A stretch of 64,000 nt of DNA, from positions 8,351 through 72,350 of the forward strand of contig CAYZAK010000001.1 in assembly GCA_964476445.1 (NCBI GenBank), read 5' to 3'. The translations under genes were made by a program, and so were the position numbers. The stretch is from an uncultured bacterium (GTDB taxonomy: Bacteria > CG03 > SLGR01 > JAGXOG01). Shown here in pieces: positions 29,925 to 48,540 of the stretch (position 1 is the first letter of the stretch; every line of letters begins with the position of its first letter). The notes under the pieces were generated by a model. The model saw nothing but the letters and a program-made list of their open reading frames with translations. It ran no database searches and had not been told where the DNA came from.

Positions 29925-31111
29925 TATTGTATATTAAATTCAGAGGCTTCCAGCAGGTTCAGTTGTATATCCCCGTCAACCTCTGTAACCTTTACAGGCG
30001 CTTTTATTTTCTCCTGTCCCGAATCTAAATCGGAAAAATCTTCAATTTGTTCCCGCTGATCATAAGACACAAACATTGGAAACTCGGAATCAGAAAGCTC
30101 CAAATACGCTCCCTCTATCCCTAAACTTACCCGTTTCACGTCAGCCAGAACTATATATTTTTTGCCCTCATCAAGCAAAGAAATTTCCGACGACGGGATT
30201 TCATCTAAAGAATCGACATCTACTTTTTCTACTATTGTCACGGCTGTCTCATCCAAAAGCTGTATATTCTCCGGACGTCCGGACGGATCTACCAGATCAA
30301 TCTGGGGGTCGCCGCGAAATTCGCCTGCCCTAACTTTCATTCTGAACGGGGCGCCTTCCTGGGTAATAGCCTGTTTAATTTTATCCGGAAGAGCTTTAAA
30401 CTGACCGTCAAAAAGAACCATTTCTATACTACCAGAACCGTCATTAAAAGCTATTCTATGTAGAATCAAACCCTCCCGAGGCGAATCTTTGCTATAGTAT
30501 TCCACATCGGCTTCCACCCAGTAAATTTCCCCTTTATCAGCGGGAGTTATACTGATTATCGGCTGTTCTTTTATCTCATAGTTTTCCACCAAACGCATAC
30601 GGTCGGGGATAGATAAAAACATGGACACTCCCCAGGTCTGAGAAACATTAAGGGTACCTATAACATTAACAACATCTCTTAAGTCAGGCATGTCATCCCC
30701 GTGATATCTACGAAAATTATCCAGGTCATTTACTGCCCTGGCGTTTATCTGGCCGGTTCCGTCATCTATTGTCATACTAAAACTGTTTCTGTCCTCCTGA
30801 TACTCCACCTCCCTGACTTCACCTTCAATTTCAACCAGGGCGTTATTCATAGTTTCGGTAATATTGCCAATATTAACCCTGGGGGGCTTTTTCATATAGG
30901 CTGCCACCCATAAAAGTATCAGTCCTACAATAGAACATATAATGGCAAGTTTTTTAATAAGATTTATGGATATGCGTTTTTCGATCCTGGATCCGCATCT
31001 TACGCAGGTAGCTCCACTCCCGACATAGTACCCGCAAACAGGACAGTTACTTATTCCTTCAGAAGAATTTTCGGGATTTTGTTCTTTTATTTGTGTGTTT
31101 TTTTTAGACAT
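29924..31111 (-). CDS. Zinc-ribbon, single-TM protein with two extracytoplasmic OB-fold-like domains
   Basis: CPVCGYYVGSGATCVRCG zinc ribbon, TM LAIICSIVGLILLWVAAY, then two repeats resembling OB-fold cores (TIDDGTGQINARAV; FNDGSGSIEMVLFDG). Confidence 0.45.
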   Translation of the reverse strand: MSKKNTQIKEQNPENSSEGISNCPVCGYYVGSGATCVRCGSRIEKRISINLIKKLAIICSIVGLILLWVAAYMKKPPRVNIGNITETMNNALVEIEGEVREVEYQEDRNSFSMTIDDGTGQINARAVNDLDNFRRYHGDDMPDLRDVVNVIGTLNVSQTWGVSMFLSIPDRMRLVENYEIKEQPIISITPADKGEIYWVEADVEYYSKDSPREGLILHRIAFNDGSGSIEMVLFDGQFKALPDKIKQAITQEGAPFRMKVRAGEFRGDPQIDLVDPSGRPENIQLLDETAVTIVEKVDVDSLDEIPSSEISLLDEGKKYIVLADVKRVSLGIEGAYLELSDSEFPMFVSYDQREQIEDFSDLDSGQEKIKAPVKVTEVDGDIQLNLLEASEFNIQ

Positions 31112-31154: not shown

Positions 31155-31991
31155 TCAAAGGGCTTCTTCTATAGTTTCTTCCACAGCAGTAGACAGCCGC
31201 TGTACAATTAAATCCACCCGGCGGTTCATAGCTCTTTGTTCGGCTGTACGGTTAGCAGCCACCAGGTGTCTCTGAATAACTTCTTGCATCTCTCTTTGGA
31301 GACTCAACTGCCGATGCCGTATTTTTCTTATTACCATCTCTTCTTCTTCGGGAGTGCCGGCTTCAACAATTTCTTCGGAAAATTCGTGGGGGACATCTTT
31401 TACTCTCTGTTTATACCTGCTAATTTCCTCATTAAACTCTGTCTCTACCGCAGGATGGTATTTACTGTATCCTCCCGCCGATAGACGGCCCGGAGGAAAA
31501 TCCAGCTGTTCGGTAAGAAATCTAGTTATATTAGTAGCCCGGGTGGCCGAAAGTTCCCAGTTAGAGGCAAACTCCGCCGTTCTTATAGGAACACTGTCAG
31601 TATGCCCTTCCACTCTGATATCATTGGGGATATCTATTATCTCTTCGGAAATATCGGCCAGAATATCTTTTGCCTCTTCGTATATATCAGCTTTGCCGGA
31701 ATCAAACATAAGTTTTTCACTTAGACTTATTACCAACCCCCGGGTATCTATTTCCAGAACTATGACTTCTTCAAGCTGGTTTTGATCAGCGTAGGTTTCC
31801 AATCTTCTTTTTACCTGAAGTAACTGCATCTCGTTTAGAGTAGCAGCCAGGGCAAACATCATGACAAAAAATATTAAAAGCTGGGTTACTAAATCAGAGT
31901 ACGTGGTCATCCAGGGCGGGGACCCTTTACCTATCTCTATATCTTCATCCTCACCTTCTAAGAGAATATCATTTTCTTCATATTCGGCCAT
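31155..31991 (-). CDS. motB: Flagellar-type stator protein MotB (OmpA-like peptidoglycan-binding C-terminus)
   Basis: Conserved TM with proton-binding Asp: WMTTYSDLVTQLLIFFVMMFALA (cf. E. coli MotB YADFMT...); OmpA-like core RVEGHTDSVPI...NWELSATRA...NRRVDLIV. Confidence 0.82.
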   Translation of the reverse strand: MAEYEENDILLEGEDEDIEIGKGSPPWMTTYSDLVTQLLIFFVMMFALAATLNEMQLLQVKRRLETYADQNQLEEVIVLEIDTRGLVISLSEKLMFDSGKADIYEEAKDILADISEEIIDIPNDIRVEGHTDSVPIRTAEFASNWELSATRATNITRFLTEQLDFPPGRLSAGGYSKYHPAVETEFNEEISRYKQRVKDVPHEFSEEIVEAGTPEEEEMVIRKIRHRQLSLQREMQEVIQRHLVAANRTAEQRAMNRRVDLIVQRLSTAVEETIEEAL

Positions 31992-32878
31992 TATTTTTTC
32001 TTCTTGGATTTATACTTAAATTTTTTCTTTTTAGTCCTTTTATTGGTTCTTTTTGATTTTTTCTGTTTAGTTTTCTTACCCTTTTTATTTTTTTTCTTAT
32101 CTTTCTTACCGGTATTTTCTTTGTCCGTCGACCGGGGTAAATACGCCCTGAGTTTAGATACCGCAATAGAAGGTATTTCACCCGCCTGTAATGAAAGAAC
32201 CCCCCTTAAAATAACTTTTTTAATAAAAATTTCATCTTCCGACCGTCTTTTTAACTTACCGGCTATAGGCAAAAACAACAAATATGCAACCAGGGCTCCG
32301 TAAAACGTGGTAAGTAAAGCCACGGCCATTCCCGAAGCTATCTGAGCCTGATCCCTGAGATCGGCAAGCATCAATATCAACCCCATTATAGTACCTATCA
32401 TCCCAAAAGCAGGAGAATAAGTTCCTAGAGTCACAAAAATTTCCTGCCCGACCTTATGGCGTTCCCGGGTAAAAGCCAGCTCGGTCTCAAGTTCCTCCTT
32501 AATGAGCTCGTAGCTCTGACCGTCAACAACCATCTTCACACCGCTTTTTAAAAACTCGTTGTCCATACTTTTTATATCATTCTGAAGAGATAGAACACCT
32601 TTTTTAGAAGCTTTTACTATTAAGGCCCGGATGGTATCAATATATTTCTGGGGATCTTCCTGCTCCTCGGTAAAAACCTTTTTCACTATTTTAAAAGCTT
32701 TTAAAACCTGTTTAAGGGGATAAGTAACCATAAGAGCGGCAAAAGTTCCTCCGAAAGTTATTAGAGCCGAAGGTAAATCTATAAAACCCATTAGACCGCC
32801 CGCTCCACCTCGTTGAAAAACAGACATAACTACAAGGATTATCCCCCCGGACAATCCTATTATAGTGGTTAAATCCAT
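31991..32878 (-). CDS. motA: Flagellar-type stator protein MotA with ~45 aa poly-lysine C-terminal tail
   Basis: Four TM helices; TM3-TM4 signature GTIMGLILMLADLRDQAQIASGMAVALLTTFYGALVAYLLFLPIAGKLK close to MotA/PomA. The C-terminus ends with STDKENTGKKDKKKNKKGKKTKQKKSKRTNKRTKKKKFKYKSKKKK. Confidence 0.85.
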   Translation of the reverse strand: MDLTTIIGLSGGIILVVMSVFQRGGAGGLMGFIDLPSALITFGGTFAALMVTYPLKQVLKAFKIVKKVFTEEQEDPQKYIDTIRALIVKASKKGVLSLQNDIKSMDNEFLKSGVKMVVDGQSYELIKEELETELAFTRERHKVGQEIFVTLGTYSPAFGMIGTIMGLILMLADLRDQAQIASGMAVALLTTFYGALVAYLLFLPIAGKLKRRSEDEIFIKKVILRGVLSLQAGEIPSIAVSKLRAYLPRSTDKENTGKKDKKKNKKGKKTKQKKSKRTNKRTKKKKFKYKSKKKK

Positions 32879-32882
32879 AGAA

Positions 32883-33104
32883 TTATTCTTCTTCTTTTAA
32901 ATTGGAAAGTTCTTTCCAGGCTTCTGCGTTGATATTTTTACGGTACTCTTTAACTTTTTCTACAATTTCTTCAATTTTTTCTTTAACCATTAACCGGTTT
33001 CCGCTGGTAAGAGAGATATGAGTATCCGGATGGGCGGTAATTGTCTCTATTAATTCGGCATTTAAAACTATCCGGGTACCGTTCATTTTTGTCACAGTTA
33101 TCAT
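32883..33104 (-). CDS. flbD: FlbD-family flagellar protein
   Basis: MITVTKMNGTRIVLNAELIETI...TLTSGNRLMVKEKIEEIVEKV matches the short FlbD family encoded immediately upstream of motA in spirochaete and Firmicute flbD-motA-motB operons. Confidence 0.75.
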   Translation of the reverse strand: MITVTKMNGTRIVLNAELIETITAHPDTHISLTSGNRLMVKEKIEEIVEKVKEYRKNINAEAWKELSNLKEEE

Positions 33105-33106
33105 AA

Positions 33107-36100
33107 TTATAAAACTAAAATATCTTTAGATGAATTTTTCTTAAATTTATCAGTAATTTTTTTAAAGAAAGATTTCCGCTCTTCCTGAAGTTCACGTAAA
33201 AGACGGGCCTGGTTTTTCTCCAGTTCCTGTCTTTTCTTCTTCTCCTGTTCAGCTATTTGGGATAGCTGTTTCTGGTCTCTTAACATTATATCAAATTTTT
33301 TCTTTAAATTATCTCTTTCCTTAATAACTTTCTGAGTTTTATCTATGAAATTCTTGATTTTTTTCTCCCGATCATCCCATTTTTTCTGCCAATCCTGTTC
33401 CATTTTTTTCTTATCGGCTTTTGAAATCCGGTCGGAATTTTGTTTAGACATTTCCTCTAATCCTATTTCTAACTGAGCTTTAAGTTCCCGAATTCTGTCT
33501 TTTAAAGTGTTATTTTTCTGTTTAAGATTATTAACTGTAGTTTTATTCTGAGAATTCGAAACAGATTTTTCTTTTAGTTCCTTTAACTGTTTGTTTTTAA
33601 GCTCTATATCTTTTATAGCTTCTTCAAGTTCTCCTTTCAACTCGTTTATCATATTTACTTTTTGTTCCTGCTTTGCCAGAATTTTTTTGTTTTTTTCAAG
33701 TTTTTGGTTTAACTTTTTATTTTCCTGTTTTAAATTTTCCAGCTCCTGTTCATCCTCTTCAGAAGGTGTCCGGGAAAGATTTTCCTGTAAATTTTCTATC
33801 TTTAAAGTTTTCTCTTCCAACTCATTCTTTAAGTTTTCAATAACCTTACTTTTTTGGGTCAAATTTTCCTCAAGGTTTTCCTGCGCTTCAAGTTCTACGT
33901 TTAAATTTTCCACTCTGTTGGATAATTTTGCTATCCGTTCTTCTTTCTTTTTCAGTTCGTCATTATCAGGCCTGCTGGAAAGATTTTCCTGTAAATTTTC
34001 TATCTTTAAAGTTTTCTCTTCCAACTCATTCTTTAAGTTTTCAATAACCTTACTTTTTTGGGTCAAATTTCCCTCAAGGTTTTCCCGCTCTTCAAGTTCT
34101 ATGTTTAAATTTTCCACTCTGTTGGATAAGTTTGCTATCCGTTCTTCTTTCTTTTTCAGTTCGTCATTATCAGGCTGGGAGGCGATTTTTTCTTCCAAGT
34201 TTTTGATTTTTTGTTCTTTTTTTTCAAGTTCTTCTTTTTCAGGATTATGTATTAATTTCTTTTCTAAATTTTTAATACGGTCTTTCTGATTTCCTATAAT
34301 TTTTTCTTTATCAACTACATCGGTTTTTAAAGTTTCTATCTTTTCTGCTTTAGCCGTAATTTCATCTTTTAAATTATTGGCTTCACTCTGGTCTATTTTA
34401 TACCTCATTTCTGAGGTTAAATCCTTTATTTTAGAATCTTTTTTTTCAATCTCTTTTAAAATCTGGTTGATCTCTTCTTGATGAGAGGCCTCTTTTTGGG
34501 AAAGTCGCTGTTCTAATTTTTCTATACGCTCTTCTTTATCTTTTAAATCGTTTTTTACCCTTTTAAATTTTTCTGTTATATCTGACAGTTCTCTTTCCCG
34601 ATTTTCTGATATTTGGTTGTTTTTATGGAAATTCTCAACATATTCCTCGGTCTTTTGTTTGAACCGGTTAAAATTATATTTTAAATTATCCAGTTCCTTG
34701 TTTTTATATTCAAGCTCTCTGTTTAATTTATTATTTTCTTCCTCTAATTGTTCCAGCTCTAATCTAAAATCCTTTTTTCTTTCTTCGTATTTATCAGCTG
34801 AATCCCATTTTTCCTCCACCTTGTGCAACAGATCCTGATAATTATTTTTAAGCCGGTCTATTTCATTTCTAAGCTTATCTTCTCGCTTTTCAAGTTCAAA
34901 TTTAATAACCTTGTTTTCTTCTATCTTTTTATCATATTTATTTTTCCACATTTCTATTTCCTCCCTAGCGGTTTTAAGCTCTTCCCGAGCTGACGCAAAT
35001 TTAGCTCTGTGTTCTAAGAGCTTGCTTTCCTGAGTTTCTAATTTTTGATTAAGTTCAACAATCTTGTTTCTGGCATTATTTAAATTCTGTTTAAGTATAT
35101 TTTTTTGTTTATATATATGACTTTTGAGATCTTTTATTTCGGATTTATAATCTTCTATTTTTTGGGCGTGTCTTTTTTCCTGTTCATTTAATTTTAATTT
35201 TAATTCCTCTTTTTCAGAGGTTCTTTGTCTTTTAATATCTCTTACCCGGCTTTGAAGACTTGAAATTTCATCTTTTAACTCTTCTTCTTTTTCCTGATAA
35301 TTAAGACGGAGTTCCTCCTTCTGTTTATCCCATTCCTCTTTAAGCCACCGGGTATTTCTTTTATAATCTTCGAATTCTCTTTTTAAACTCCGTATTCTTT
35401 GATCCTTACGGTTTCTTAATTCTCTTACAGTATTCCGGGATTCTTCAAGCTGGTTATTAAGTAACTCTAATTGCCGGTTATAATCCTCTTCGTTTTTATT
35501 AAGTTTTTCCCGTTCTTCGCGTCTTATTTCTCTAATTTTACTCTCTATTTCAAAAGCTGCGTCTTCTTTTTCCTTAATTACACCGGACAATTTTTCCTTC
35601 ATCTCTTTATTTGTACGGTTTAGATTATGATTTTCATCGTCAAATTCCTGTAAATCTGTTTTTAACTGTTCATTTTTCTTTTTAAGATTACGGTTCTGCC
35701 TTATATTATTTTCCAGTTCTTCTTCTAAATTTTCAATCTTTTGGGCTGTTTTACGGTGTATTTTTTCTTTCTCTTCTTTTAGAGTTTCCACTTTATTTTT
35801 CTGAGTTTCATAACTTTGTCTTAAACTGTTCATTTTTTCTTCATATTCATCTTCTATTTTGGTTTTTATTTTTTCATAATTTACTTTTTTTGTTTTTATA
35901 TTTTCTAACGCTCGGCTGTGAAGTTCTTCTTTAGCGGAAATCTGCTGTTCATATTTTTGCTGAATATTCTTAAACTTTTCTGCCAAATTAGCCTTGCTGT
36001 TCTCTAAATCTTTAATTTGGGATTGGTAATCTTTAATTTTATTACTATATTCTCGTTCCAAAGTTCTAATTTTATCTTCATTCTGTTCATTAATATTTCT

Positions 36101-37426
36101 TATTTTTTCAGTCCAACGGCGGTGGTGAGTATTTAATTTAGATTCTAGATTATTAATTTTTTCATTATAAACGTCCCGCTGAGATTCATATTTACTCTGT
36201 TTGGACTTTATCTGATCAGTGAGTCTATTTATCTTGTTTTTATATCTTCTATCTAATAAATCCTTTTCTTTATTTAAACTGTTAATCTTATTTGTGTACT
36301 CTACCTTTTCCTGTTCGTACTTTTGTTTAATATTTTCATACTTATGTATAGCATCTTCTTTATTTTGAACTTCTCGGGTGAGTTTTTCCTTGTAATTATA
36401 TTTAAGTTTGCTTATCTTCTGCTGAAATTCAGAGACCGCTTTTTCCTTCTCGTTTATATTGTCCCTTAATCTTTCTTCCCACAGTTCGCTTTTATTATTA
36501 AATTTCTGCTGAATTTTCCACAGTTCTCTATTAGTTTCGTCGTTGTTTTTTTGAAGTTCATAAATCTTATTTTTTAAATTATGCCGAACTTCTTTAAGCC
36601 TGTTTTGATAGTCAAGTTTTAAATTATCTCTTAAATTTTCACTTCTTTGAAGTTTTTTACTCCATTCTGTTCTCTTCTCTATAAGTTTCTTTTCCATCTC
36701 CCGCAGTTGCTCCCGGAGTTGTTGTTTCTCTTCACGGGTCTGGTCAAATTTTTTATTTAACGCCGTACTCTGTAAAACTTCCTTTAATGACTGTTCAACT
36801 TTAACGGCATTTTTTTCTTCTTCTTTATATTTTATTCTTTCTTCGTAAGCTCTTTTTTTTGCTTTTTCAAGCTCCTCTTTTAATTCCTTAACTTGTTCCT
36901 GAACCTGGTTTTGAGCTTCCCTGTATGCCTCCTGACGGATCTGATTCTGGGTTTTTTCTTTAGCTATCTTAGCTTTATTTTCTTTACGTATCTTTTCTAA
37001 AGTTTCCTGCCATTTTTTTCTTTCTTCGGCAAGTTCCTGCTCTCTTTTTTTATATTCTTCCTCCAGACTCTTTTTAAGATTAGCCAATTCTCTCTGTCTA
37101 TGGCGAGTCTGTTCTTTTTCTTTCTTGAGAAATTTTTCCTGAAGTTCTAAATTTTCTTCCTCAGTTTCTTTAAGACGGTTCATTAATTCTTCTCTTTCTT
37201 TTACCATCCGACCTTCTATATCTTGAATTTTATTTTTGGCTTCTTCGGCTTTTTGAGACTTTTGTTTTTTCTGTTTATCTTTTTCAGACGGGGGTCCCGG
37301 CGGGAGGGTCGGACCCTGGCCGAAATTGCTGGAGCTGGAGCTGCTATTTTTACCGGGGCCGGGTACCGGAGGAGTTCCCGGCGTCGGATCAGGTAAATTA
37401 GGAAATTTTGAGTTTTTGTTTTTCAT
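33107..37426 (-). CDS. Giant (1439 aa) Lys/Glu-rich coiled-coil protein with Pro-rich N-terminus and internal 68-aa tandem repeat
   Basis: N-terminal PNLPDPTPGTPPVPGPG...SSSSSS low-complexity, then >1300 aa of continuous heptad K/E/L/N/Q sequence. Residues ~1085-1225 contain two near-identical 68-aa units (SQPDNDELKKKEERIANLSNRVENLN...KIENLQENLS). Confidence 0.7.
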   Translation of the reverse strand: MKNKNSKFPNLPDPTPGTPPVPGPGKNSSSSSSNFGQGPTLPPGPPSEKDKQKKQKSQKAEEAKNKIQDIEGRMVKEREELMNRLKETEEENLELQEKFLKKEKEQTRHRQRELANLKKSLEEEYKKREQELAEERKKWQETLEKIRKENKAKIAKEKTQNQIRQEAYREAQNQVQEQVKELKEELEKAKKRAYEERIKYKEEEKNAVKVEQSLKEVLQSTALNKKFDQTREEKQQLREQLREMEKKLIEKRTEWSKKLQRSENLRDNLKLDYQNRLKEVRHNLKNKIYELQKNNDETNRELWKIQQKFNNKSELWEERLRDNINEKEKAVSEFQQKISKLKYNYKEKLTREVQNKEDAIHKYENIKQKYEQEKVEYTNKINSLNKEKDLLDRRYKNKINRLTDQIKSKQSKYESQRDVYNEKINNLESKLNTHHRRWTEKIRNINEQNEDKIRTLEREYSNKIKDYQSQIKDLENSKANLAEKFKNIQQKYEQQISAKEELHSRALENIKTKKVNYEKIKTKIEDEYEEKMNSLRQSYETQKNKVETLKEEKEKIHRKTAQKIENLEEELENNIRQNRNLKKKNEQLKTDLQEFDDENHNLNRTNKEMKEKLSGVIKEKEDAAFEIESKIREIRREEREKLNKNEEDYNRQLELLNNQLEESRNTVRELRNRKDQRIRSLKREFEDYKRNTRWLKEEWDKQKEELRLNYQEKEEELKDEISSLQSRVRDIKRQRTSEKEELKLKLNEQEKRHAQKIEDYKSEIKDLKSHIYKQKNILKQNLNNARNKIVELNQKLETQESKLLEHRAKFASAREELKTAREEIEMWKNKYDKKIEENKVIKFELEKREDKLRNEIDRLKNNYQDLLHKVEEKWDSADKYEERKKDFRLELEQLEEENNKLNRELEYKNKELDNLKYNFNRFKQKTEEYVENFHKNNQISENRERELSDITEKFKRVKNDLKDKEERIEKLEQRLSQKEASHQEEINQILKEIEKKDSKIKDLTSEMRYKIDQSEANNLKDEITAKAEKIETLKTDVVDKEKIIGNQKDRIKNLEKKLIHNPEKEELEKKEQKIKNLEEKIASQPDNDELKKKEERIANLSNRVENLNIELEERENLEGNLTQKSKVIENLKNELEEKTLKIENLQENLSSRPDNDELKKKEERIAKLSNRVENLNVELEAQENLEENLTQKSKVIENLKNELEEKTLKIENLQENLSRTPSEEDEQELENLKQENKKLNQKLEKNKKILAKQEQKVNMINELKGELEEAIKDIELKNKQLKELKEKSVSNSQNKTTVNNLKQKNNTLKDRIRELKAQLEIGLEEMSKQNSDRISKADKKKMEQDWQKKWDDREKKIKNFIDKTQKVIKERDNLKKKFDIMLRDQKQLSQIAEQEKKKRQELEKNQARLLRELQEERKSFFKKITDKFKKNSSKDILVL
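33770..34177. repeat. Two tandem near-identical 204-bp direct repeats inside the coiled-coil gene
   Basis: Unit ggaaagattttcctgtaaattttctatctttaaagttttctcttccaactcattctttaagttttcaataacc... at 33773 recurs at 33977 (offset 204) with only a handful of substitutions, ending ...ttcagttcgtcattatcagg at 33970 and 34174. Confidence 0.9.
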
Positions 37427-37542: not shown

Positions 37543-39495
37543 TTAATGAACTTCTACCCATTCTTTTAATTCCTGATTATCCGGATTTAACTGCAGGGAT
37601 TTTTTATAAGAAGCTTTAGCTTTACTTTCCTCCCCCATAGCTAAATAACAGGAGCCCATATATTGATGGGTCTGCCATATATCAGGGTTGTACTGTAAAG
37701 ATTGCTGGAATTGCTGCACGGCCTGGCTGTAATTTTCGTTCTTATAGGCTTCCAGACCCTTTTCATAAAACTTAAAAGCTATTTCATCGTTATTGGTCTC
37801 TTCTTTTGGCGGACTTTCCATATTTTCTTTTTCTTCAATTGCTTCTTTGGCCGCATTTATTATGTTCTCAAGAACGGACTCTTTCTCTTCTTCTCCAAGT
37901 TCTTCTTCCCAAAGCTCCGCAGTTCCTTCCCCTGTTACACCCGTTATAGTACCGTCCGCTTCCAATTCTTTTATTTTGGCTACAATACCACGCTGACTGT
38001 TTTTTATCTGCTCTCCAGTCACATTACGACCGTATTCAATCTCTTCTTTTAATAAAGCTGCCGCTCCTTCACTCATGTTTTCCATAAACCTCTCCCTGAA
38101 CTCTTCAGAAGTATTTTTAAGGGCAACTCCCAGATCTTTGGTTTCTACTTCCTGGATAATCATCTGTATAGCCGCATCATCCAGATTCATTATATCTTCA
38201 AAACTAAAAATTTGACTTTCAACTTTCTGAGAAAATTCAGGATCTTCTCTGGAAATAGACTCAAGTATCTGATCTCTCTCAGTTTCGCCCATCACCTCCA
38301 GCATACCTACCAGCTTGTCCGCTCCACCGGACACATATTCTATCTTTTGGCTTAAAAATTCATCCACGTGCTCCATAATCTCTTTTGAAGTGCATTGCAT
38401 ACTCACTATCTTTTTAGCAATTTCCGCTTTATTCTCTTCCGGTAAAGCGGCTAACACTTTTGCCGCTTTCGGCGCATCTAAATAATCTATTAACAGTGCC
38501 GCCACAGACGGCTTTTCAAAATTCAAAAGATAGGCCAGTTTTTTTAAATCTTTATTCTCCAAAAACTTTAAAGGTTTATAGGTCATTTTTTCAAACTCCT
38601 CCTCTTCGGTCTCTTCTTGTGTTTCCCCTTCTATATATTCTCCGTCTTCAATTTCTTCTTCCGGTTTTTCTTCATCAAATTCTTCCTCCAGTTCTTCTTC
38701 CATTTCCATTTCAGTTTCCCCGGCCCCCATACCGGCACCTATGCCGCCACCGCCGGCCGTGGCACCGGTAAATTCTGTTTCGGATTTCATCTTTTTTAAA
38801 TCTTTTAAAGTCTGAAGAGTAGCAAAAAGAAATTTACGGAGAGGACCGAACAGAAAAAGGCCAATTATACCCAAGGTAATTAAGCCCAGGACGATTACAT
38901 AAAAATAAGGATTAAATAAAAACCCTACAAAATCAATAGTTCTCCCGGCAAAATCCACCCGCTGAATAGTAAGCCTGTCTCCCCGGGCCGGATTTATATC
39001 AAGAACATCGGTTAGTACATTTTCAATAGTTAGTACGGTTTCATCAGGTATTCCCCGGTCCAGTATTAAACTGACCTGAATACTAGCCAGAAATTCAGAA
39101 GGCAGAGTAATTACATCTTCTATTCTTTTTGCCCCGCCGGTACCTCTTTCGGCATCCTGATCTTCGGGCTGTTCCTCTAACTGTTGTCTTCTTAACGGAA
39201 CTCCGGGAAGGTACTCTTCTACTTCAGGGGAGTACGGCTGATCTTCTTCTCTTTCTTCGGACCACTGCTCGGTCTGAGTTCTGGATTTTTCCAGATCGGC
39301 CAGCTCAACGCTGACAATGACCGATGATTTTCCCTCCCCTACAATTCTTTCCACTATACCGCTTAAATGGGTTTCCAGGCGCTGTTCAGTTTCCATCTTC
39401 TGATTTATCAGGGTAGTATAATCAGAGAATTCAGCTTGGCCCATAAAAAGGGGTACTGCCAACAGTACTGCCAGTTTTTTTAGTATATTTTTCAT
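37543..39495 (-). CDS. Membrane-anchored FliF-like ring-building-motif / FliG (middle + C-terminal domains) / TPR fusion protein
   Basis: Residues ~35-185 contain two FliF/YscJ-like RBM blocks: RLETHLSGIVERIVGEGKSSVIVSVELAD and SIQVSLILDRGIPDETVLTIENVLTDVLDINPARGDRLTIQRVD (cf. FliF ASVTVTLEPGRALDEGQISAVVHLVSSAVAGLPPGNVTLVDQSG). TM at ~187-218; acidic/Gly-rich linker. Residues ~305-525 align with the FliG M and C domains: ILESISREDPEFSQKVESQIFSFEDIMNLDDAAIQMIIQEVETKDLGVALKNTSEEFRERFMENMSEGAAALLKEEIEY versus T. maritima ILESLEEEDPELAEEIRKKMFVFEDILKLDDRSIQLVLREVDTRDLALALKGASDELKEKIFKNMSKRAAALLKDELEY. The C-terminal ~85 aa form TPR repeats. Stop overlaps the upstream FadL-like gene start (ATGA). 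Confidence 0.7.
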   Translation of the reverse strand: MKNILKKLAVLLAVPLFMGQAEFSDYTTLINQKMETEQRLETHLSGIVERIVGEGKSSVIVSVELADLEKSRTQTEQWSEEREEDQPYSPEVEEYLPGVPLRRQQLEEQPEDQDAERGTGGAKRIEDVITLPSEFLASIQVSLILDRGIPDETVLTIENVLTDVLDINPARGDRLTIQRVDFAGRTIDFVGFLFNPYFYVIVLGLITLGIIGLFLFGPLRKFLFATLQTLKDLKKMKSETEFTGATAGGGGIGAGMGAGETEMEMEEELEEEFDEEKPEEEIEDGEYIEGETQEETEEEEFEKMTYKPLKFLENKDLKKLAYLLNFEKPSVAALLIDYLDAPKAAKVLAALPEENKAEIAKKIVSMQCTSKEIMEHVDEFLSQKIEYVSGGADKLVGMLEVMGETERDQILESISREDPEFSQKVESQIFSFEDIMNLDDAAIQMIIQEVETKDLGVALKNTSEEFRERFMENMSEGAAALLKEEIEYGRNVTGEQIKNSQRGIVAKIKELEADGTITGVTGEGTAELWEEELGEEEKESVLENIINAAKEAIEEKENMESPPKEETNNDEIAFKFYEKGLEAYKNENYSQAVQQFQQSLQYNPDIWQTHQYMGSCYLAMGEESKAKASYKKSLQLNPDNQELKEWVEVH

Positions 39496-41090
39496 TCCAT
39501 TAAATCCTCTATTTCAAATTCTTCACTGTCTCTATCCACCGGCCGGCGAACCTGATTAATAAAATTCCTCAGATCATCATCGGCCGGATTAAGCTGCAGA
39601 GATCTTTCCCAGGCCTCCACAGCTCTCTCTTCGTTGCCTATAGAGTAAAAAGACGAGCCAATTCTTTTGTACGCCTGGGCGTTTTCGGGCTCAATAACCA
39701 GCACTTCCTGGTATTCTTCAATGGCCTGGGCATAATCCTCGTTGTAAAAATGCTGAAGTCCCTTATGTAATTTGTACTCGGCCAGGGACATTCCCGAAAC
39801 AACTCTTATCCGGGGATCTGCTAAATTTTCCTTTTCCCCTATCCATCTTAAAAGCTCTTTAGCCTGTTCATCAGTGGGATCTTCAGTAATTATGTGATTT
39901 AAAGCCAGTACTATGATATCAACATTATCATTTTCTATGTACTCCCTTATACCTCTTCTTAAAAGAGAACCCGATCGGGTATCCTCCACTTTACGGGGAA
40001 TCCATTCTGCTATATCGGATAAAATATCCCTTTTTCTGGATACTTCACGGTCAAAAGGATTTAAACTGTAAGCTTTTTCAAAACTTTTCAAGGCATCGTC
40101 ATAAAGACCTTCCCGGTAAGCCACATCACCTTCCGTTTTATATTCCCGGGCGGACCTTTCCTTTATTTCCTTAACAGAACGTCCGAAACTTATAGTGGCC
40201 GATAGCCTGTGCGAGCCACCTAAATCATGGGCCGCATAGGCATAATCCACTCCGTAATCATCATATTCAATTCCAAAACCCAGGTTTAATTCCTGGGGAT
40301 CTATACCCATCCTGAGAGCCAGATAATCCAGAGCCCAGAACTCCATCCCTATATTGTAAGGAAGTCCGCTATCCCAGCCTATGGCAGTACTTATATCCGC
40401 ACCCAGGGACAACCGGTCCCTTAATAACTTGTAATTCACTCCCAAACGGGCCATTATGGGTAATTCATCGGAAGTATTGTAGGATTCGGAAAGTAAATTC
40501 TGCATATTCAATCCCACTCTTAAATCCTCTATGGGGGTATATATTCCCCCAATATCTAAAATATAACTGCCGCTTTTATGATTATCAAGGGTATGGCTCA
40601 TTTTTTTAAAGGTTCCTCCAACTGCCAGCTCTTCTAAAATTCTCTGGCCGTAAGATAAACCGTAAGCACTCTGAATATCCTCAAATGTATGGGTAACTCT
40701 ATTTTTGGCATCTCTTCCTTCAAATCCTCCCATAAAAAGCCGAGTTCCCGAAAACCCGAAAGTTCCCCCGAACTCGGTGGGCTGAACATAACTTACAAAA
40801 TCATATACCGACCCTCCCCATAAAACTGAATGAAGAGCAGTTAATTCACTCCGGTGAAGGTCAGCCAGTCCGGCTGGATTCCAGTAAGTAGCCGAAGCAT
40901 CGTCGGCCAGGGCAACAAAAGCTTTTCCCATGCCCAGAGACCGGGCTCCCGCTCCCCAGGACATAAAAGCACCGGGCATACCCCCACGACCGCTCTTACG
41001 AGCCCAGTTTAAAGTAAACTGGCCCAGCGAAATTATATAAGCCAGAACAATTAATACCAAGACTGATTTTTTTATCAATTTATATATCAT
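39492..41090 (-). CDS. FadL/PorV-like outer-membrane beta-barrel protein with ~230 aa C-terminal TPR extension
   Basis: Signal peptide MIYKLIKKSVLVLIVLAYIISLG (start set at ATG 41090); hatch-domain motif ARSLGMGKAFVALADDASATYWNPAGLADL matching FadL [27 protein letters not shown]; alternating amphipathic strands; C-terminal TPR repeats (YKLHKGLQHFYNEDYAQAIEEYQEVLVIEPENAQAYKRIGSSFYSIGNEERAVEAWERSLQLNP). Confidence 0.6.
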   Translation of the reverse strand: MIYKLIKKSVLVLIVLAYIISLGQFTLNWARKSGRGGMPGAFMSWGAGARSLGMGKAFVALADDASATYWNPAGLADLHRSELTALHSVLWGGSVYDFVSYVQPTEFGGTFGFSGTRLFMGGFEGRDAKNRVTHTFEDIQSAYGLSYGQRILEELAVGGTFKKMSHTLDNHKSGSYILDIGGIYTPIEDLRVGLNMQNLLSESYNTSDELPIMARLGVNYKLLRDRLSLGADISTAIGWDSGLPYNIGMEFWALDYLALRMGIDPQELNLGFGIEYDDYGVDYAYAAHDLGGSHRLSATISFGRSVKEIKERSAREYKTEGDVAYREGLYDDALKSFEKAYSLNPFDREVSRKRDILSDIAEWIPRKVEDTRSGSLLRRGIREYIENDNVDIIVLALNHIITEDPTDEQAKELLRWIGEKENLADPRIRVVSGMSLAEYKLHKGLQHFYNEDYAQAIEEYQEVLVIEPENAQAYKRIGSSFYSIGNEERAVEAWERSLQLNPADDDLRNFINQVRRPVDRDSEEFEIEDLME

Positions 41091-41112
41091 ATCATTTGTA
41101 CAAAAAAAATAC

Positions 41113-41149
41113 CGATTTACCTTTATAAACATGATAAAGGCAAATCGGC
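41113..41149 (-). terminator. Intrinsic terminator-like hairpin between the two FadL-like genes
   Basis: Minus-strand RNA gccgatttgcctttat-catgttt-ataaaggtaaatcggt (15-bp stem, 1 G-U) followed by AUUUUUUUUG. Lies 22 nt upstream of the ATG at 41090 and ~220 nt downstream of the stop of the 41371-42444 gene. Confidence 0.55.
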
Positions 41150-41370
41150 AATTCCAATACATCAACCTGTATTGACTTCCAATTCAACCTACTGGCAATT
41201 CAGCCTTCCTTAACTTTACCAGGAACTGTAATTTTGCGTTACGACGGTTACCCACCGGTTGCCTTTATCAGTAGTTTTTCAATATTCTATTTTCTTTTCC
41301 TATTAAATTAATAACACGAAATCCGGTTTTTTTCAAGGAATTCATTAATGTACCGGTAACTTTCCGTTAT

Positions 41371-42444
41371 TTAATTATCAAATTCAGTTCTTTTATTTTT
41401 AGTTCTTTCCATCCAGTTTCTAATTCTCTTATAATTACTATCTAAAGAATATACCTTATTGAACTCCAGCCAGGCCTTACGGTACTGTTCATCCTTAAAA
41501 AATTTTTTGCCTTTTCTGTACATCTGTTCTATTAATACCGGTTCACCGAATTTAAAATTTAAATCCACCCGATGAGAAATTCCCAGTTCCCCAAAAGGTG
41601 CCAGAGCGTAATCTAGTTCTAAATCCCCCCATCTAACACCTCCCCCAAAACGAAAAGTTTCATCTATATCCGACCGGCTATTCCAGCCGCCCCTAAAATA
41701 AAGAGATTGCCACAAGTCAAACTCCACCCCCCCACCGTATCTTAACTGGTCATTTATATAAATAACGTCGGCGGCTATAAGGGTAAATTTATTCAGTCTT
41801 AATCCCAGACCCGTAAAAAATGAAACAGGCATAGAAGGAACTTCTTCAACCAGCCTCCCGCTCACCCCGGCGTTTTTAACCCCCCCCGAAAGCCACAATC
41901 CTTCAACAGGTTCTACTATAACTCCCCCGTCAAGTCCCACGGCAAAAACACTGTCTTCATGGAGTTGTTCAAATATTCCCTTTAAAGTTAATCCACCGGA
42001 CAGGTACCGGGTAATCCTCTGGGCCTGGGTGTAAGATATATAGTAGTCCCTGGCCGACAATGTCCCGGAAGGTTCCCCATACCAGTCATACCCTTCTATC
42101 TGCTCCACTGAAAGAATGGATATATTAATCCCCCCGGCGGCCATATTCTCCATAGGAAAAGCGAACCCTATTCTCTGCTGGTTTACATCTTGAAAATACT
42201 GATTGTGCATAGCCGAAACAGAGTATCTTTCCACATATCCCAGCCCGGCAGGGTTCCACCAGTAGGCATTGGGGCCATGAGAAACCGCCGTGCCCACCCC
42301 CATTCCTATTTCCCTGGCCCCCACGGGCAAATTAAGAAAATCAAAGGCCGTACTCCCCGGGCCGCTTCCCCAAAGAGAGGGAATTGCTATAACAGATATA
42401 TAAAGAAAAATTATGTATGATTTTTTTAGTATTTTAATCGTCAT
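41371..42444 (-). CDS. FadL/PorV-like outer-membrane beta-barrel protein (paralogue of 39492-41090) with short C-terminal TPR
   Basis: Signal peptide; same hatch motif VGAREIGMGVGTAVSHGPNAYWWNPAGLGYV; C-terminal QMYRKGKKFFKDEQYRKAWLEFNKVYSLDSNY TPR-like repeat; its start overlaps the stop of the 1915-aa CTD protein by 4 nt. Confidence 0.6.
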   Translation of the reverse strand: MTIKILKKSYIIFLYISVIAIPSLWGSGPGSTAFDFLNLPVGAREIGMGVGTAVSHGPNAYWWNPAGLGYVERYSVSAMHNQYFQDVNQQRIGFAFPMENMAAGGINISILSVEQIEGYDWYGEPSGTLSARDYYISYTQAQRITRYLSGGLTLKGIFEQLHEDSVFAVGLDGGVIVEPVEGLWLSGGVKNAGVSGRLVEEVPSMPVSFFTGLGLRLNKFTLIAADVIYINDQLRYGGGVEFDLWQSLYFRGGWNSRSDIDETFRFGGGVRWGDLELDYALAPFGELGISHRVDLNFKFGEPVLIEQMYRKGKKFFKDEQYRKAWLEFNKVYSLDSNYKRIRNWMERTKNKRTEFDN

Positions 42445-42700
42445 CTTATTATCATCAGTTTACCGGTTTTCCGGTTCCCGCCGCTTTTTATATGATAGAT
42501 ATAAGTCCCGCTGGCCACAGTCGCTCCCCGGGTATTTTCCACCGGATACCAGTTGTAAATTCCCGGCTGGGGCGCCTGGGCGTCAGAATGTTTCAGCGTT
42601 TTAACCACCCGCCCGGAAAGAGTGTATATTTCAATTTCGCATTCTGCAGGCAGATATCTGAAAGTAATACCGTCCCGGGGGGCGCCAGTTGGCCTCTCGG
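42441..42700 (-). other. T9SS-type C-terminal sorting domain (CTD) of the 1915-aa protein
   Basis: Terminal ~80 aa with the IY.LSGR.V...G.Y.W...G..VASG.Y.Y.I..G...GKL pattern ending in basic residues. Confidence 0.55.
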
Positions 42701-48188: not shown

Positions 48189-48224
48189 CCGGCCGGATTA
48201 TGGGAAGATTCTTTGGGTCTTAAT

Positions 48225-48540
48225 TTACCTTATTATGGCTATCCGCCGGGTCTTTTCCACCGTTCCTTCGTCGGATTTTACCACTATTCGGGCCAGGTAC
48301 CCACCTTTAGCCACGTCCTGACCCCGCTCGTTTACGGCGTACCAGGGGAAACTGTTGTGTCCCTGCCGACCGCCGTTCTCCCCGGCGTCAAATTCCCAGT
48401 ATTTAACCAGATACCCCATCATATCGTACAGATATACTTCAACATTGGCGTCCTGATTAAGAATGTAGGTTATCTTAGTCTTCTCGGCGCCCAAATCAAA
48501 CCGGGCGGGATTGGGATAGTTGGATACCTCGCTTACAACC
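48225..48540 (-). other. T9SS-type C-terminal sorting domain of the giant adhesin
   Basis: Last ~100 aa SNYPNPARFDLGAEKTKITYILNQDANVEVYLYDMMGYLVKYW...GGYLARIVVKSDEGTVEKTRRIAIIR: NP.NP start, Y.Y.D..G..V, G.Y..R pattern of Por_Secre_tail-like CTDs. Confidence 0.6.

What the first reader, a model, noticed from the sequence alone, without database searches (positions are those of the whole stretch)
33107..37426. 1439-aa Lys/Glu-rich coiled-coil giant encoded between the rotor-like protein and flbD
Essentially the whole protein after a Pro/Ser-rich N-terminal 50 aa is predicted to be continuous alpha-helical coiled coil (~1350 aa, potentially ~200 nm if extended). It resembles SMC/myosin-rod-like or spirochaete cytoskeletal filament proteins more than any flagellar component. 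Its position immediately upstream of flbD-motA-motB, and downstream of the FliG-like gene in the same transcript, suggests a structural role. It may act as a track, tether or spacer for the putative motor.
Basis: partly seen in the sequence, partly recalled or inferred. Interest (0 to 1): 0.55.

Follow-up and report, generated by a model that had tools for sequence, protein, structure and literature searches.

The report
Giant coiled-coil partner of non-flagellar motor
A real 1439-residue gene encodes a roughly 200 nm coiled-coil rod, without known domains, that always sits between a membrane-anchored FliG-like rotor gene and flbD-motA-motB in a group of Elusimicrobiota, so it is probably a structural tether or spacer of an undescribed flagellum-derived motor.

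Summary
The ORF (33107-37426, minus strand) is real. It is cytoplasmic, has a Pro/Gly/Ser-rich first ~50 residues, and is heptad-phased over 88% of its length against 19% for shuffles. No SMC head or hinge, receiver, chemoreceptor or flagellar domain was found in it or in seven orthologues.

It belongs to a small unannotated family. I found it in ten further metagenomic loci, in those read through always between a FliF-C/FliG/TPR fusion gene and flbD-motA(-motB). Complete orthologues are 769-1655 aa.

Conservation is concentrated at the ends. These are an N-terminal polyproline motif plus the first ~300 rod residues, and a C-terminal ~100 residues ending in a cationic amphipathic helix and a hydrophobic tip. 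The middle is divergent and indel-rich, and the window carries a fresh 68-aa tandem duplication.

This pattern fits a two-ended tether or spacer better than a periodic track. More distant FliF-C/FliG + MotAB loci lack the rotor TPR, FlbD and the rod together.

The closest functional analogue is Myxococcus AglZ (proline-rich segment plus long coiled coil docking a proton-driven gliding motor), but no homology or receiver domain was found. Function is inferred from genomics only. Interest is moderate to high.

The parts
33107..37426 (-). Giant coiled-coil protein, 1439 aa, 175 kDa, cytoplasmic
   Evidence: ORF and translation. Heptad phasing 88% against 19% in shuffles. No TM or signal peptide. 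No Pfam, NCBIfam, PADLOC or PDB domain. Orthologues 31-36% identical and colinear, 541 bits against at most 22 bits for shuffles.
37277..37426 (-). N-terminal Pro/Gly/Ser-rich, non-helical segment (aa 1-50) with a degenerate polyproline motif
   Evidence: 13 Pro in aa 9-46. Orthologues carry PGPPPPP-type runs at aa 10-20, often with a second run.
36377..37276 (-). Conserved N-terminal third of the rod (aa 51-350), the best-conserved part and a candidate docking region
   Evidence: 46-63% identity to six orthologues per 50-aa bin, against 17-29% in most of the middle. Also the part still alignable to the distant 769-aa orthologue.
33407..36376 (-). Divergent spacer rod (aa 351-1340). Residues 1001-1250 are indel-rich and hold the Pro/Gly hinges
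   Evidence: Identity 17-36% apart from one patch at aa 651-700 (43%). Alignment occupancy falls to 45-72% in aa 1001-1250. All profile hits to PDB coiled coils fall in this part.
33773..34175 (-). In-frame tandem duplication, 2 x 204 bp (68 aa), 97% identical
   Evidence: Tandem Repeats Finder, score 771. Visible in the translation as two near-identical blocks.
33110..33406 (-). Conserved C-terminal domain (aa 1341-1439): W-x3-W, REKxI, F, LxDQKxLSQxAExE
   Evidence: Alignments A2 and A4 show invariant W, W, R, E, F and L columns. 42-44% identity. AlphaFold gives one long helix at pLDDT about 93.
33110..33187 (-). C-terminal tail (aa 1414-1439): cationic amphipathic helix, a Gly/Ser-Lys hinge, and a hydrophobic tip (-ILVL)
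   Evidence: Hydrophobic moment 0.51-0.77 in all eight full-length sequences tested, at or above the rod's 95th percentile (0.61) in six of them. Net charge +4/+5 in the seven close ones and +2 in the distant L011. The last five residues are hydrophobic in all.
37543..39495 (-). Rotor-like protein: signal-like N-terminus, periplasmic FliF-C-like domain, TM helix (aa 187-224), poly-Glu linker, FliG_M, FliG_C, cytoplasmic TPR
   Evidence: Pfam FliG_C 1.6e-30, FliG_M 6.7e-17, TPR, weak FliF_C. Aligns to T. maritima FliG over aa 307-524. Family alignment, AlphaFold domain layout, TM helix.
32883..33104 (-). FlbD/SwrD-family protein, 73 aa, start codon 2 nt after the rod's stop
   Evidence: PF06289 7.9e-25. 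Junction sequence.
31991..32878 (-). Flagellar-type MotA stator subunit with a poly-Lys/Arg C-terminal tail
   Evidence: MotA_ExbB 8.8e-31. MotP/PomA models 234-246 bits against ExbB/TolQ about 20 bits. PDB MotA/PomA 1e-49. Tail.
31155..31991 (-). MotB stator subunit (plug, TM helix with Asp, OmpA-like domain)
   Evidence: MotB_plug and OmpA. Sequence shows the TYSDL motif.
39492..41165 (-). PorV/PorQ-family outer-membrane barrel fused to TPR repeats; upstream partner in all ten relatives that cover that side (not read in L013)
   Evidence: NF033709 1e-34 and TPR hits. Synteny.
41371..42444 (-). Second PorV/PorQ-family barrel protein
   Evidence: NF033709 2.1e-28, PorQ 2.1e-24.
42441..63992 (-). 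Two giant presumed surface proteins: 1915 aa with FG-GAP/Ig domains, and at least 5255 aa with no domain hit. Upstream of the module in most but not all relatives
   Evidence: Counterparts of 2000 to 17,658 aa in relatives. Absent upstream in L003/L004.

Best explanation
The gene encodes a dedicated cytoplasmic structural subunit of a non-flagellar, flagellum-derived envelope motor found in a clade of Elusimicrobiota. The motor core is a membrane-anchored FliF-C/FliG fusion (rotor-like) with a cytoplasmic TPR, a FlbD/SwrD-like protein, and a flagellar-type MotA/MotB proton or sodium stator. A PorV-like outer-membrane barrel with TPR repeats lies upstream, often with giant surface proteins.

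The rod works as a two-ended tether or spacer. Its conserved N-terminal end (polyproline motif plus the first ~300 rod residues) docks on the cytoplasmic face of the motor, most likely on the rotor protein's TPR. Its conserved C-terminal end (about 100 residues finishing in a cationic amphipathic helix and a hydrophobic tip) attaches to the inner membrane or to a second partner. The divergent, length-variable middle sets a distance of roughly 100-240 nm, comparable to the roughly 0.2-0.3 um width I recall for cultured Elusimicrobia.

Shown: the ORF, the coiled-coil character, the absence of known domains, the conserved synteny, the end-weighted conservation, and the length variability. Inferred: the docking partners, the membrane binding, the oligomeric state, and that the motor turns at all.
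For: (1) Synteny. In nine further loci with 58-65% identical rotor proteins where measured, the gene after the rotor gene is an orthologous rod. In every locus that reads through, it is followed by flbD and motA. Outer flanks differ (trp operon, Wzy-like gene, glyS, fatty-acid genes).

(2) Two distant relatives keep the arrangement, with rotor proteins only 31-32% identical. L011 has a 769-aa rod with a polyproline N-terminus and an SFF...hydrophobic C-terminus, then FlbD, MotA and two MotB. L013 has a Pro-rich coiled-coil ORF cut by the contig end.

(3) Co-occurrence. All eleven loci whose FliG-like protein ends in a TPR, or for L047 is presumed to, have the rod. In the eight read past the rod, flbD follows. 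Two more distant FliF-C/FliG + MotA + 2xMotB loci lack the TPR, FlbD and the rod together.

(4) True homology. 31-42% identity, colinear over more than 1200 residues; 541 bits against at most 22 bits for shuffled sequence.

(5) Conservation is end-weighted. aa 51-350 are 46-63% identical and aa 1351-1439 are 42-44%. Most of the middle is 17-29% with indels, and the window carries a fresh 68-aa duplication. Complete lengths are 769, 1260, 1300, 1302, 1374, 1439, 1453 and 1655 aa.

(6) The C-terminal tail is a conserved amphipathic, cationic helix with a hydrophobic tip.

(7) Tight coupling to flbD: a 2-nt gap, with no terminator-like site upstream.

(8) Precedent. Myxococcus AglZ, a 153-kDa protein with a proline-rich sequence followed by a long coiled coil, docks a proton-driven gliding motor through that proline-rich sequence (PMC11135422; PMC11761067).

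(9) Free-living, non-flagellated Elusimicrobiota are reported to keep motAB, flbD and fliG with an 'enigmatic' role (bioRxiv 10.1101/2022.07.08.499144).
Against: There is no experimental or structural evidence for any contact. TPR-rod docking rests on co-occurrence in only 13 loci from a narrow lineage. The window's own polyproline motif is degenerate compared with its orthologues.

Amphipathic moments as high as the tail's occur elsewhere in the rod (99th percentile 0.69, maximum 0.79), so membrane binding is only suggested. If both ends are fixed and the rotor turns, a simple tether would block rotation, so the geometry is unresolved.

I could not check whole genomes for flagellar structural genes. 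The torque-helix arginines of FliG are replaced (R281-equivalent to Gly, R297-equivalent to Thr). MotA's R90 and E98 equivalents are changed in most members. Productive rotor-stator contact is therefore not assured.
Confidence: 0.5

Rival explanations
1. Stator-side scaffold. The rod, together with FlbD, binds MotA (for example its poly-Lys tail) and recruits, spaces or stabilises stator units around or along the rotor protein. This would resemble accessory factors that raise stator performance in flagella.
For: The rod's stop codon is 2 nt from the flbD start. FlbD and the rod appear and disappear together. The FlbD homologue SwrD raises flagellar motor power in Bacillus (Hall et al. 2018, cited in PMC9195833). 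A PilZ tetramer stabilises stators from the cytoplasm in Campylobacter (PMC11725899). MotA in the long-rod clade has a basic tail of about 45 aa that is absent where the rod is short or missing.
Against: FlbD occurs widely in flagellated bacteria without such a rod. L011 has the rod and FlbD but no basic MotA tail. A 200-nm rod is far larger than a single-stator clamp needs.
Confidence: 0.15
2. Linear track or rack. Many FliF-C/FliG/TPR subunits line up along the rod or a bundle of rods. Spinning MotA pentamers then drive them linearly, dragging the periplasmic and outer-membrane parts and the giant adhesins along the cell. This is rack-and-pinion gliding.
For: Giant adhesin-like proteins and PorV-like barrels lie upstream in most loci. 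This recalls adhesin-conveying gliding machines driven by 5:2 motors (review PMC9389320). The rod is long enough to carry many subunits.
Against: There is no internal sequence periodicity or repeat apart from one recent duplication. The middle of the rod is poorly conserved and variable in length, which is unexpected for a surface carrying repeated specific docking sites. The adhesin genes are absent from the L003/L004 neighbourhood.
Confidence: 0.12
3. Rotor-driven shaft or mechanical signal line. The rods attach to the turning FliG ring and transmit rotation or tension into the cytoplasm. This would work like the long coiled-coil tail of ZorA in Zorya, or like an inward-facing filament.
For: The TPR that co-occurs with the rod is on the rotor-like protein. 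The module has a flagellar-type stator with the essential MotB Asp and the MotA prolines. The acidic pair of the FliG torque helix is kept.
Against: It is not a Zorya system. MotA scores 16 bits on ZorA models against about 240 bits on flagellar MotP/PomA models. The rod has no PADLOC hit, and there are no ZorC/D-like genes. The rod is a separate protein, not a MotA extension. No cytoplasmic effector gene is conserved in the locus.
Confidence: 0.12
4. A general cytoskeletal or chromosome-organising coiled-coil protein (SMC-like, DivIVA/Scy-like, crescentin-like) that merely shares an operon with the motor genes.
For: Weak hits to SMC and Rad50 models and to myosin and SMC chains. Long coiled-coil proteins with housekeeping roles are common in bacteria.
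Against: Those hits cover only coil regions and lie far below cut-offs (60.7 bits against 567). No ATPase head or hinge is present in any of eight family members. The linkage to the FliG-like gene and flbD-motA survives when all other flanking genes change, and extends to 31%-identity relatives.
Confidence: 0.06

Closest known systems
AglZ of Myxococcus xanthus (cytoplasmic platform of the Agl-Glt gliding machine)
   Same: Similar size (153 kDa against 175 kDa). A proline-rich sequence is followed by a very long coiled coil. It is cytoplasmic and acts with an envelope-spanning, ion-driven MotA/TolQ-type motor, outer-membrane barrels and a surface adhesin. AglZ's proline-rich sequence is the docking element (PMC11135422).
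   Different: No receiver domain here, and no sequence homology was detected to any described family. The motor is a flagellar-type MotAB plus a FliG-like protein, not AglRQS. No GYF-domain protein was seen in the locus; the candidate receptor is a TPR. The conserved amphipathic C-terminal tail is not, as far as I recall, a described AglZ feature. The rod gene lies inside the motor operon.
Flagellar rotor-stator core (FliF, FliG, MotA, MotB, FlbD/SwrD)
   Same: The neighbours are clear homologues. FliG_M and FliG_C align to T. maritima FliG at 1.5e-40. MotA aligns to solved MotA/PomA at 1e-49. MotB plug and OmpA domains and FlbD are present.
   Different: The rod itself matches no flagellar protein. 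FliG lacks its N-terminal domain and is fused to a TM helix and a FliF-C-like periplasmic domain. EHPQ becomes EKPS, and two torque-helix arginines are lost. No FliM/N, export gate, rod, hook or filament genes occur in the 64-kb window or in the flanks read around the related loci.
ZorA tail of the Zorya anti-phage system
   Same: A very long cytoplasmic coiled coil associated with a MotAB-type 5:2 motor.
   Different: Here the coil is a separate gene, and MotA is flagellar-type (16 bits on ZorA models). There are no ZorC/D genes and no PADLOC hit for the rod. The genomic context is adhesins and outer-membrane barrels, not defence genes.
SMC/Rad50/MukB arms and myosin/paramyosin rods
   Same: Length and heptad character. 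Weak profile hits to their coiled-coil parts.
   Different: No ATPase head and no hinge. No 28-residue or other long-range charge periodicity of the kind that drives myosin-type filament packing.

Membership tests
SMC / Rad50 / MukB | N- and C-terminal ABC ATPase head halves (Walker A, Walker B, signature) | tested here: not met
   No SMC_N or AAA hit in the window protein or seven orthologues. TIGR02168 scores 60.7 bits against a cut-off of 567 and matches model positions 237-509 only, which is coil.
SMC / Rad50 / MukB | Central hinge or zinc hook that folds the coil back on itself | tested here: not met
   No hinge domain hit. Residues 73-1044 have no Pro and one Gly, and there is no Cys anywhere.
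AglZ / FrzS-type motility coiled-coil proteins | N-terminal (pseudo)receiver domain | tested here: not met
   No Response_reg hit. The N-terminus is a 50-aa Pro/Gly/Ser-rich segment.
AglZ / FrzS-type motility coiled-coil proteins | Proline-rich sequence followed by a long coiled coil | tested here: met
   PGPPPPP-type runs lie before the rod in all orthologues and are degenerate in the window copy. Heptads.
AglZ / FrzS-type motility coiled-coil proteins | Sequence homology to AglZ and binding to a GYF-domain motor protein | not tested
   I did not compare the rod directly with an AglZ sequence, which I did not hold. No GYF hit was seen among the neighbours scanned. Binding cannot be tested with these tools.
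Zorya (ZorA tail) | Coiled-coil tail fused to a ZorA-type MotA homologue, with ZorB and ZorC/D or ZorE | tested here: not met
   PADLOC gives no hit for the rod. MotA scores 16.1 bits on ZorA2 against 246 bits on flagellar MotP. No ZorC/D genes.
Known flagellar cytoplasmic components (FliH, FliJ, FliM, FliN, FliL, FliK) | Match to the family's Pfam or NCBIfam model | tested here: not met
   None at E <= 0.01 in any of eight members. One isolated FlgK_D1 hit at 5.7e-4 in a single member.
Myosin / paramyosin-type self-assembling rods | Long-range charge periodicity (28-residue repeat) | tested here: not met
   Fourier spectra of positive and negative charges in seven orthologues stay within the range of shuffles, except one short-period (2.25-residue) peak in L044. 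No peak was seen near 28 residues or its 9.3-residue harmonic.
Methyl-accepting chemotaxis proteins | MCP signalling hairpin domain, usually with TM helices and HAMP | tested here: not met
   No MCPsignal or HAMP hit. No TM helix. Only about 24-bit coil-level profile hits to MCP chains.
Secreted fibrillar surface proteins (M-protein-like) | Signal peptide and cell-surface anchor | tested here: not met
   No hydrophobic segment in any orthologue. The N-terminus is polar and Pro-rich.
FliG (neighbouring gene 37543-39495, not the rod) | FliG_N, FliG_M (EHPQR motif) and FliG_C (charged torque helix) | tested here: inconclusive
   FliG_M and FliG_C are met at 6.7e-17 and 1.6e-30. There is no separate FliG_N. 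EHPQ becomes EKPS. In the torque helix the acidic pair is kept as EE, but the R281 and R297 equivalents are Gly and Thr. It is a divergent FliG-domain protein, not an orthodox FliG.

The most novel reading that the evidence does not exclude
The locus encodes a previously undescribed, non-flagellar machine of non-flagellated Elusimicrobiota. A FliF-C/FliG fusion ring or rack is driven by flagellar-type MotAB. On the outside it is coupled through TPR and PorV-like barrels to giant adhesins. On the inside it is coupled to a ~200 nm coiled-coil cytoskeletal element, the protein in question. That would make it a new kind of gliding or surface-adhesin-moving motor, and a living example of the flagellar rotor-stator pair working without a flagellum.
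Probability: 0.25. Interest if true: 0.85.

Novelty: new variant of a known kind. Interest (0 to 1): 0.62.

Why it matters
Free-living Elusimicrobiota that lack flagellar structural genes are known to keep fliG, flbD and motAB, with no explanation (bioRxiv 10.1101/2022.07.08.499144). This analysis shows those genes form one conserved module with two further parts that had not been pointed out. One is a giant coiled-coil protein with conserved ends. The other is a PorV-like outer-membrane TPR protein.

If the module is a working motor, it would be a rare case of the flagellar torque-generating core reused for something other than a flagellum. That bears on how the flagellar motor evolved and on how ultrasmall, unculturable bacteria move or handle giant adhesins.

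The rod gives concrete handles for testing: two short conserved end motifs for binding assays, and a 200-nm object that should be visible by cryo-tomography.

Tried and rejected
Protein homology searches with the whole rod and with a C-terminal profile returned nothing. Exact look-ups then showed that none of the rod orthologues tested is in that protein collection. These negatives are therefore uninformative.

The exhaustive representative search gave nine hits, about seven of them true family members. It very likely undercounts the family.

The genome-contig scan with the rotor protein returned one short contig. The metagenome scan was swamped by ordinary FliG genes but yielded the distant loci L011-L013. 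Whole-genome checks for flagellar genes were therefore not possible.

SMC, Rad50, chemoreceptor, Zorya, flagellar-component and surface-fibril readings were tested and rejected (see membership tests). A search for myosin-like charge periodicity found nothing above shuffles.

Promoter and terminator scans did not exceed shuffled expectation (32 against 25.7, and 13 against 12.4) and gave no operon boundary. No clear Shine-Dalgarno sequence precedes the ATG, but the N-terminus aligns with orthologues, so the start is accepted.

AlphaFold on the last 215 residues gave only long helices with no globular fold (pTM 0.32), so I ran no fold search. The rotor-protein model was of low overall confidence (pLDDT 60.6) and I used it only for domain layout. 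FlbD has no relative of solved structure detectable by sequence.

I looked for co-variation of the MotA E98 and FliG R281 charges. It is not consistent across the family (E98-equivalent is Q in five members and E in two), so I make no claim from it.

Full report
**1. The observation.**

The window carries one uninterrupted ORF on the minus strand, 33107-37426, with an ATG start, encoding 1439 aa. The same protein is called on two independent public contigs from an ENA metagenome assembly.

It is 17.7% Lys, 17.3% Glu, 10.1% Leu and 9.6% Asn, with no Cys. Thirteen of its 17 prolines lie in residues 9-46. Residues 73-1044 have no Pro and a single Gly.

Hydrophobic residues show the 3.5-residue rhythm of a coiled coil, with autocorrelation peaks at lags 4, 7, 11, 14, 18 and 21. 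88% of residues lie in 28-residue windows with a strong a/d pattern, against 19% on average (at most 34%) in shuffled copies. Eight orthologues give 75-89%. Hydrophobic content is 24%, so this is a coiled coil and not a charged single helix.

No 19-residue window is hydrophobic (maximum -0.17), so there is no signal peptide or TM helix and the protein is cytoplasmic. The predicted mass is 175 kDa. About 1380 helical residues would span about 205 nm if extended.

There are about 34 register shifts. Pro and Gly cluster in residues 1045-1325. An AlphaFold model of the last 215 residues has two helix breaks. The low GC of the gene (30%) reflects its Lys/Glu/Asn codons.

**2. No known domain.**

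Pfam gives only a sub-threshold coil hit. NCBIfam gives SMC, Rad50 and 'helix-rich' hits far below their cut-offs, and these cover only coil parts of the models. For example, SMC scores 60.7 bits against a cut-off of 567, over model positions 237-509.

PADLOC gives nothing. A sequence search of PDB gives nothing. Scanning all eight family members against Pfam finds no domain shared by more than two of them. A family profile hits only coiled-coil stretches of myosin, CCDC40, SMC arms, dynactin and kinesin, at 35 bits or less, nearly all in the variable middle or C-terminal half of the rod. The SMC head and hinge, a chemoreceptor domain, a receiver domain and every flagellar family are therefore absent.

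**3. The neighbourhood.**

All genes here are on the minus strand.

- **Upstream gene (37543-39495, 650 aa).** It has a signal-like N-terminus and a periplasmic domain with a weak FliF C-terminal match. These are followed by one TM helix (aa 187-224) and a poly-Gly/Glu linker. Then come FliG middle and C-terminal domains (6.7e-17 and 1.6e-30) and, after another acidic linker, a cytoplasmic TPR unit modelled at pLDDT about 90.
- **How it compares with FliG.** It aligns with Thermotoga FliG over aa 307-524 at 1.5e-40. The FliM-binding EHPQ motif reads EKPS. The torque helix reads MSEGAAALLKEEIEYGRNVT against MSKRAAALLKDELEYMGPVR in Thermotoga. The acidic pair is kept, but the two arginines (E. 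coli R281 and R297 equivalents; numbering from my own knowledge) are lost.
- **Downstream genes.** After a 2-nt gap come a FlbD/SwrD-family protein (7.9e-25) and a MotA. The MotA scores 234-246 bits on flagellar MotP/PomA models and about 20 on ExbB/TolQ. Then comes a MotB with plug, TM aspartate and OmpA-like domain.
- **Further upstream.** There is a PorV/PorQ-family barrel fused to TPR repeats and a second PorV/PorQ-like barrel. Beyond them lie a 1915-aa FG-GAP/Ig protein and an ORF of at least 5255 aa.
- **Rest of the window.** It encodes housekeeping genes, a MoxR/Bat operon and a PilT-like ATPase, and no other flagellar gene.

**4. Relatives.**

The rotor-like protein has about 18 close homologues, 52-65% identical. 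Those that carry a source name are all labelled Elusimicrobiota or Elusimicrobia. I read the surroundings of nine close loci: L002, L003, L004, L005, L008/L009, L044, L045, L046 and L047.

- In each, the next gene is a large ORF without Pfam hits: 1260, 1300, 1302, 1374, 1453 and 1655 aa, or cut by a contig end at 1075 and 1321 aa or more. Wherever the contig continues, flbD and motA follow, and motB follows in all but L046.
- In each, a PorV-like TPR gene precedes the rotor gene.
- The outer flanks differ: trp operon, a Wzy-like TPR gene, glyS, fatty-acid genes. The module is therefore the conserved unit.
- The large ORFs are true orthologues of the window protein. They are 31-42% identical and colinear over more than 1200 residues. 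The window protein against L003 scores 541 bits with composition correction, against at most 22 bits for shuffled sequence.

Two distant relatives keep the design. In L011 the rotor protein is 31% identical. The locus has a giant surface protein, barrels, the TPR-bearing rotor gene and a 769-aa coiled coil. That rod has a PPPPPPPP run near its N-terminus and a ...KKKSFFTSLASWLRTPLIEI end. FlbD, MotA and two MotB follow. It is weakly but significantly similar to the window rod, at 52 bits against 22 bits or less. In L013, a high-GC relative, the TPR-bearing gene is followed by a Pro-rich, Glu/Gln/Arg/Ala coiled-coil ORF cut by the contig end.

Two still more distant loci (L006 and L007; FliF-C/FliG proteins 23-26% identical) have MotA and two MotB. 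They have no C-terminal TPR on the rotor protein, no FlbD and no coiled-coil gene. The rod, FlbD and the rotor's TPR therefore come and go together, although the sample is only 13 loci.

**5. Anatomy of the family.**

The ends are conserved and the middle is not. Against six full-length orthologues, identity per 50-residue bin is as follows.

| Residues | Identity |
|---|---|
| 51-350 | 46-63% |
| 651-700 | 43% |
| 1351-1439 | 42-44% |
| Most of the remaining rod | 17-29% |

Alignment occupancy falls to 45-72% in residues 1001-1250. That indel-rich stretch contains the window's in-frame tandem duplication of 204 bp (68 aa, 97% identical), which is direct evidence that length changes are tolerated.

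The N-terminal 50 residues carry a polyproline run (PGPPPPP or similar at aa 10-20, often a second one) in every orthologue. The window copy is degenerate.

The C-terminal domain has invariant W-x3-W, RE, F and L columns and the motif LQDQKTLSQLAEKE. It ends in a net +4/+5 amphipathic helix (hydrophobic moment 0.51-0.77; rod 95th percentile 0.61), then a Gly/Ser-Lys hinge and a hydrophobic tip, -KG(V/I)LxL. AlphaFold models this region as one long helix with the last eight residues unstructured.

There is no long-range charge or hydrophobic periodicity.

**6. Mechanism.**

What is shown is a cytoplasmic rod with family-specific ends, a plastic middle and an obligate genomic partnership with a flagellum-derived rotor-stator module. 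From this I infer a two-ended tether or spacer.

The N-terminal end would dock on the motor's cytoplasmic face. The best candidate receptor is the rotor protein's TPR, because TPR and rod co-occur and TPRs are peptide-binding modules. The C-terminal end would lie on the inner membrane or bind a second partner. This follows from general knowledge of amphipathic membrane-targeting helices such as those of MinD and FtsA. The comparison sequences were recalled from memory. The variable middle would set a distance of about 100-240 nm.

A periodic track is less likely, because nothing in the rod repeats and the middle is poorly conserved.

Three alternatives remain open. One is a stator-side scaffold acting with FlbD and the poly-Lys tail of MotA. 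The second is a rotor-driven shaft or signal line, as in the ZorA tail, although this is not a Zorya system. The third is an unrelated housekeeping coiled coil, which the synteny contradicts.

An unresolved difficulty is geometric. A rod fixed at both ends would stall a rotating ring, so either one end is mobile or the FliG-like protein is not a freely turning ring.

**7. Comparison with known systems.**

The nearest functional analogue is AglZ of Myxococcus. It is a 153-kDa protein with a receiver domain, a proline-rich sequence and a long coiled coil. Its proline-rich sequence binds the GYF domain of the membrane protein GltJ. That contact links the proton-driven AglRQS motor to a cytoplasmic platform (PMC11135422; PMC11761067).

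The resemblance lies in the proline-rich lead, the long rod, the motor context, the outer-membrane barrels and the adhesin. It is functional only. There is no receiver domain, no detected homology, no GYF partner, and the motor is of a different type.

The neighbours are genuine homologues of FliG, MotA, MotB and FlbD, but the rod is not a known flagellar part.

A preprint on magnetotactic Elusimicrobiota noted that most free-living members lack flagellar structural genes yet keep motAB, flbD and fliG, and called their role enigmatic. It treats flbD as the Caulobacter-type regulator. The PF06289 family here is in fact the SwrD type, which raises motor power in Bacillus. Three full-text searches found no paper describing this module or the rod. 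The only family member with a source name is annotated 'hypothetical protein'.

**8. Verdict.**

The protein founds an undescribed family of giant coiled-coil proteins tied to a non-flagellar FliG-MotAB module.

I class it as a new variant of a known kind, namely a coiled-coil scaffold of an envelope motor. The whole machine could prove categorically new.

The main limits are these:

- Everything rests on metagenomic sequence.
- The family census is incomplete, because the protein collections omit these sequences.
- I could not check whole genomes for flagella.
- No contact has been tested.

Noticed in passing
window 37543-39495 (-): The 'FliG-like' gene is a fusion. It has a signal-like N-terminus, a periplasmic FliF-C-like domain, one TM helix, poly-Glu linkers, FliG_M and FliG_C, and a cytoplasmic TPR. 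There is no FliG_N, EHPQ reads EKPS, and the two torque-helix arginines are lost. It deserves a finding of its own.
   Followed up: partly
window 31991-32130 (-), MotA aa ~250-295: MotA ends in a tail of about 45 aa that is roughly 60% Lys/Arg (KKDKKKNKKGKKTKQKKSKRTNKRTKKKKFKYKSKKKK). The tail is present in all close relatives with long rods. It is absent from L011, L006 and L007. Its partner could be acidic linkers, lipid or nucleic acid; this is unknown.
   Followed up: partly
window 39492-42444 (-): Two PorV/PorQ-family outer-membrane barrel proteins, one fused to periplasmic TPR repeats, in a phylum not known for type IX secretion. The TPR-fused one is conserved directly upstream of the rotor gene in all ten relatives that cover that side (L013 upstream was not read).
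   Followed up: partly
window 42441-63992 (-); L002 1-7021; L008 1-7826: Giant presumed surface proteins lie upstream of the module: 1915 aa with FG-GAP/Ig domains, and at least 5255 aa with no Pfam hit in the last 2499 aa. Relatives have genes of 7,265 and 17,658 aa. L003/L004 lack them at this position.
   Followed up: no
window 29924-31111 (-): The gene after motB encodes an N-terminal zinc ribbon (CPVCG...CVRCG), one TM helix and an OB-fold domain. In L003, L004, L044, L045 and L047 that position is instead held by a Wzy_C (O-antigen-ligase-like) protein with TPR repeats, which may belong to the module.
   Followed up: no
L046 8504-9724: In this relative (GCA_048634415.1) motA is followed by about 350 bp without an ORF and then fatty-acid genes, so motB is missing from the locus.
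   Followed up: partly
L006 10001-13527; L007 3146-6869: A wider family of FliF-C/FliG fusion genes followed by motA and two motB paralogues, without TPR, FlbD or rod. L007 has a PorP/SprF-TPR-LysM gene upstream, and L006 has type IV pilin-like genes downstream. This suggests several versions of a non-flagellar FliG-MotAB module.
   Followed up: partly
window 33107-37426 and orthologues: None of the six rod sequences looked up (the window's and five orthologues) is present in the 15-billion-protein collection, although neighbouring genes are. Only P0024 is in it. Searches there silently miss this family, so such low-complexity giants may be under-represented in protein databases generally.
   Followed up: yes
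window 19892-27266 (-): A complete MoxR ATPase, DUF58, BatA, BatB, TPR and BatD operon lies downstream of the module. It is not conserved next to the module in relatives.
   Followed up: no
window 13592-15534 (-): A PilT/PilB-type secretion ATPase gene overlaps the end of a cyclic-nucleotide-binding-domain protein gene. This may be a regulated type IV pilus component.
   Followed up: no
window 33107-37426 compared with orthologues: The window's rod has a predicted pI of 9.1, whereas all orthologues have pI 5.2-6.1. Its polyproline motif is also the most degenerate of the set.
   Followed up: no
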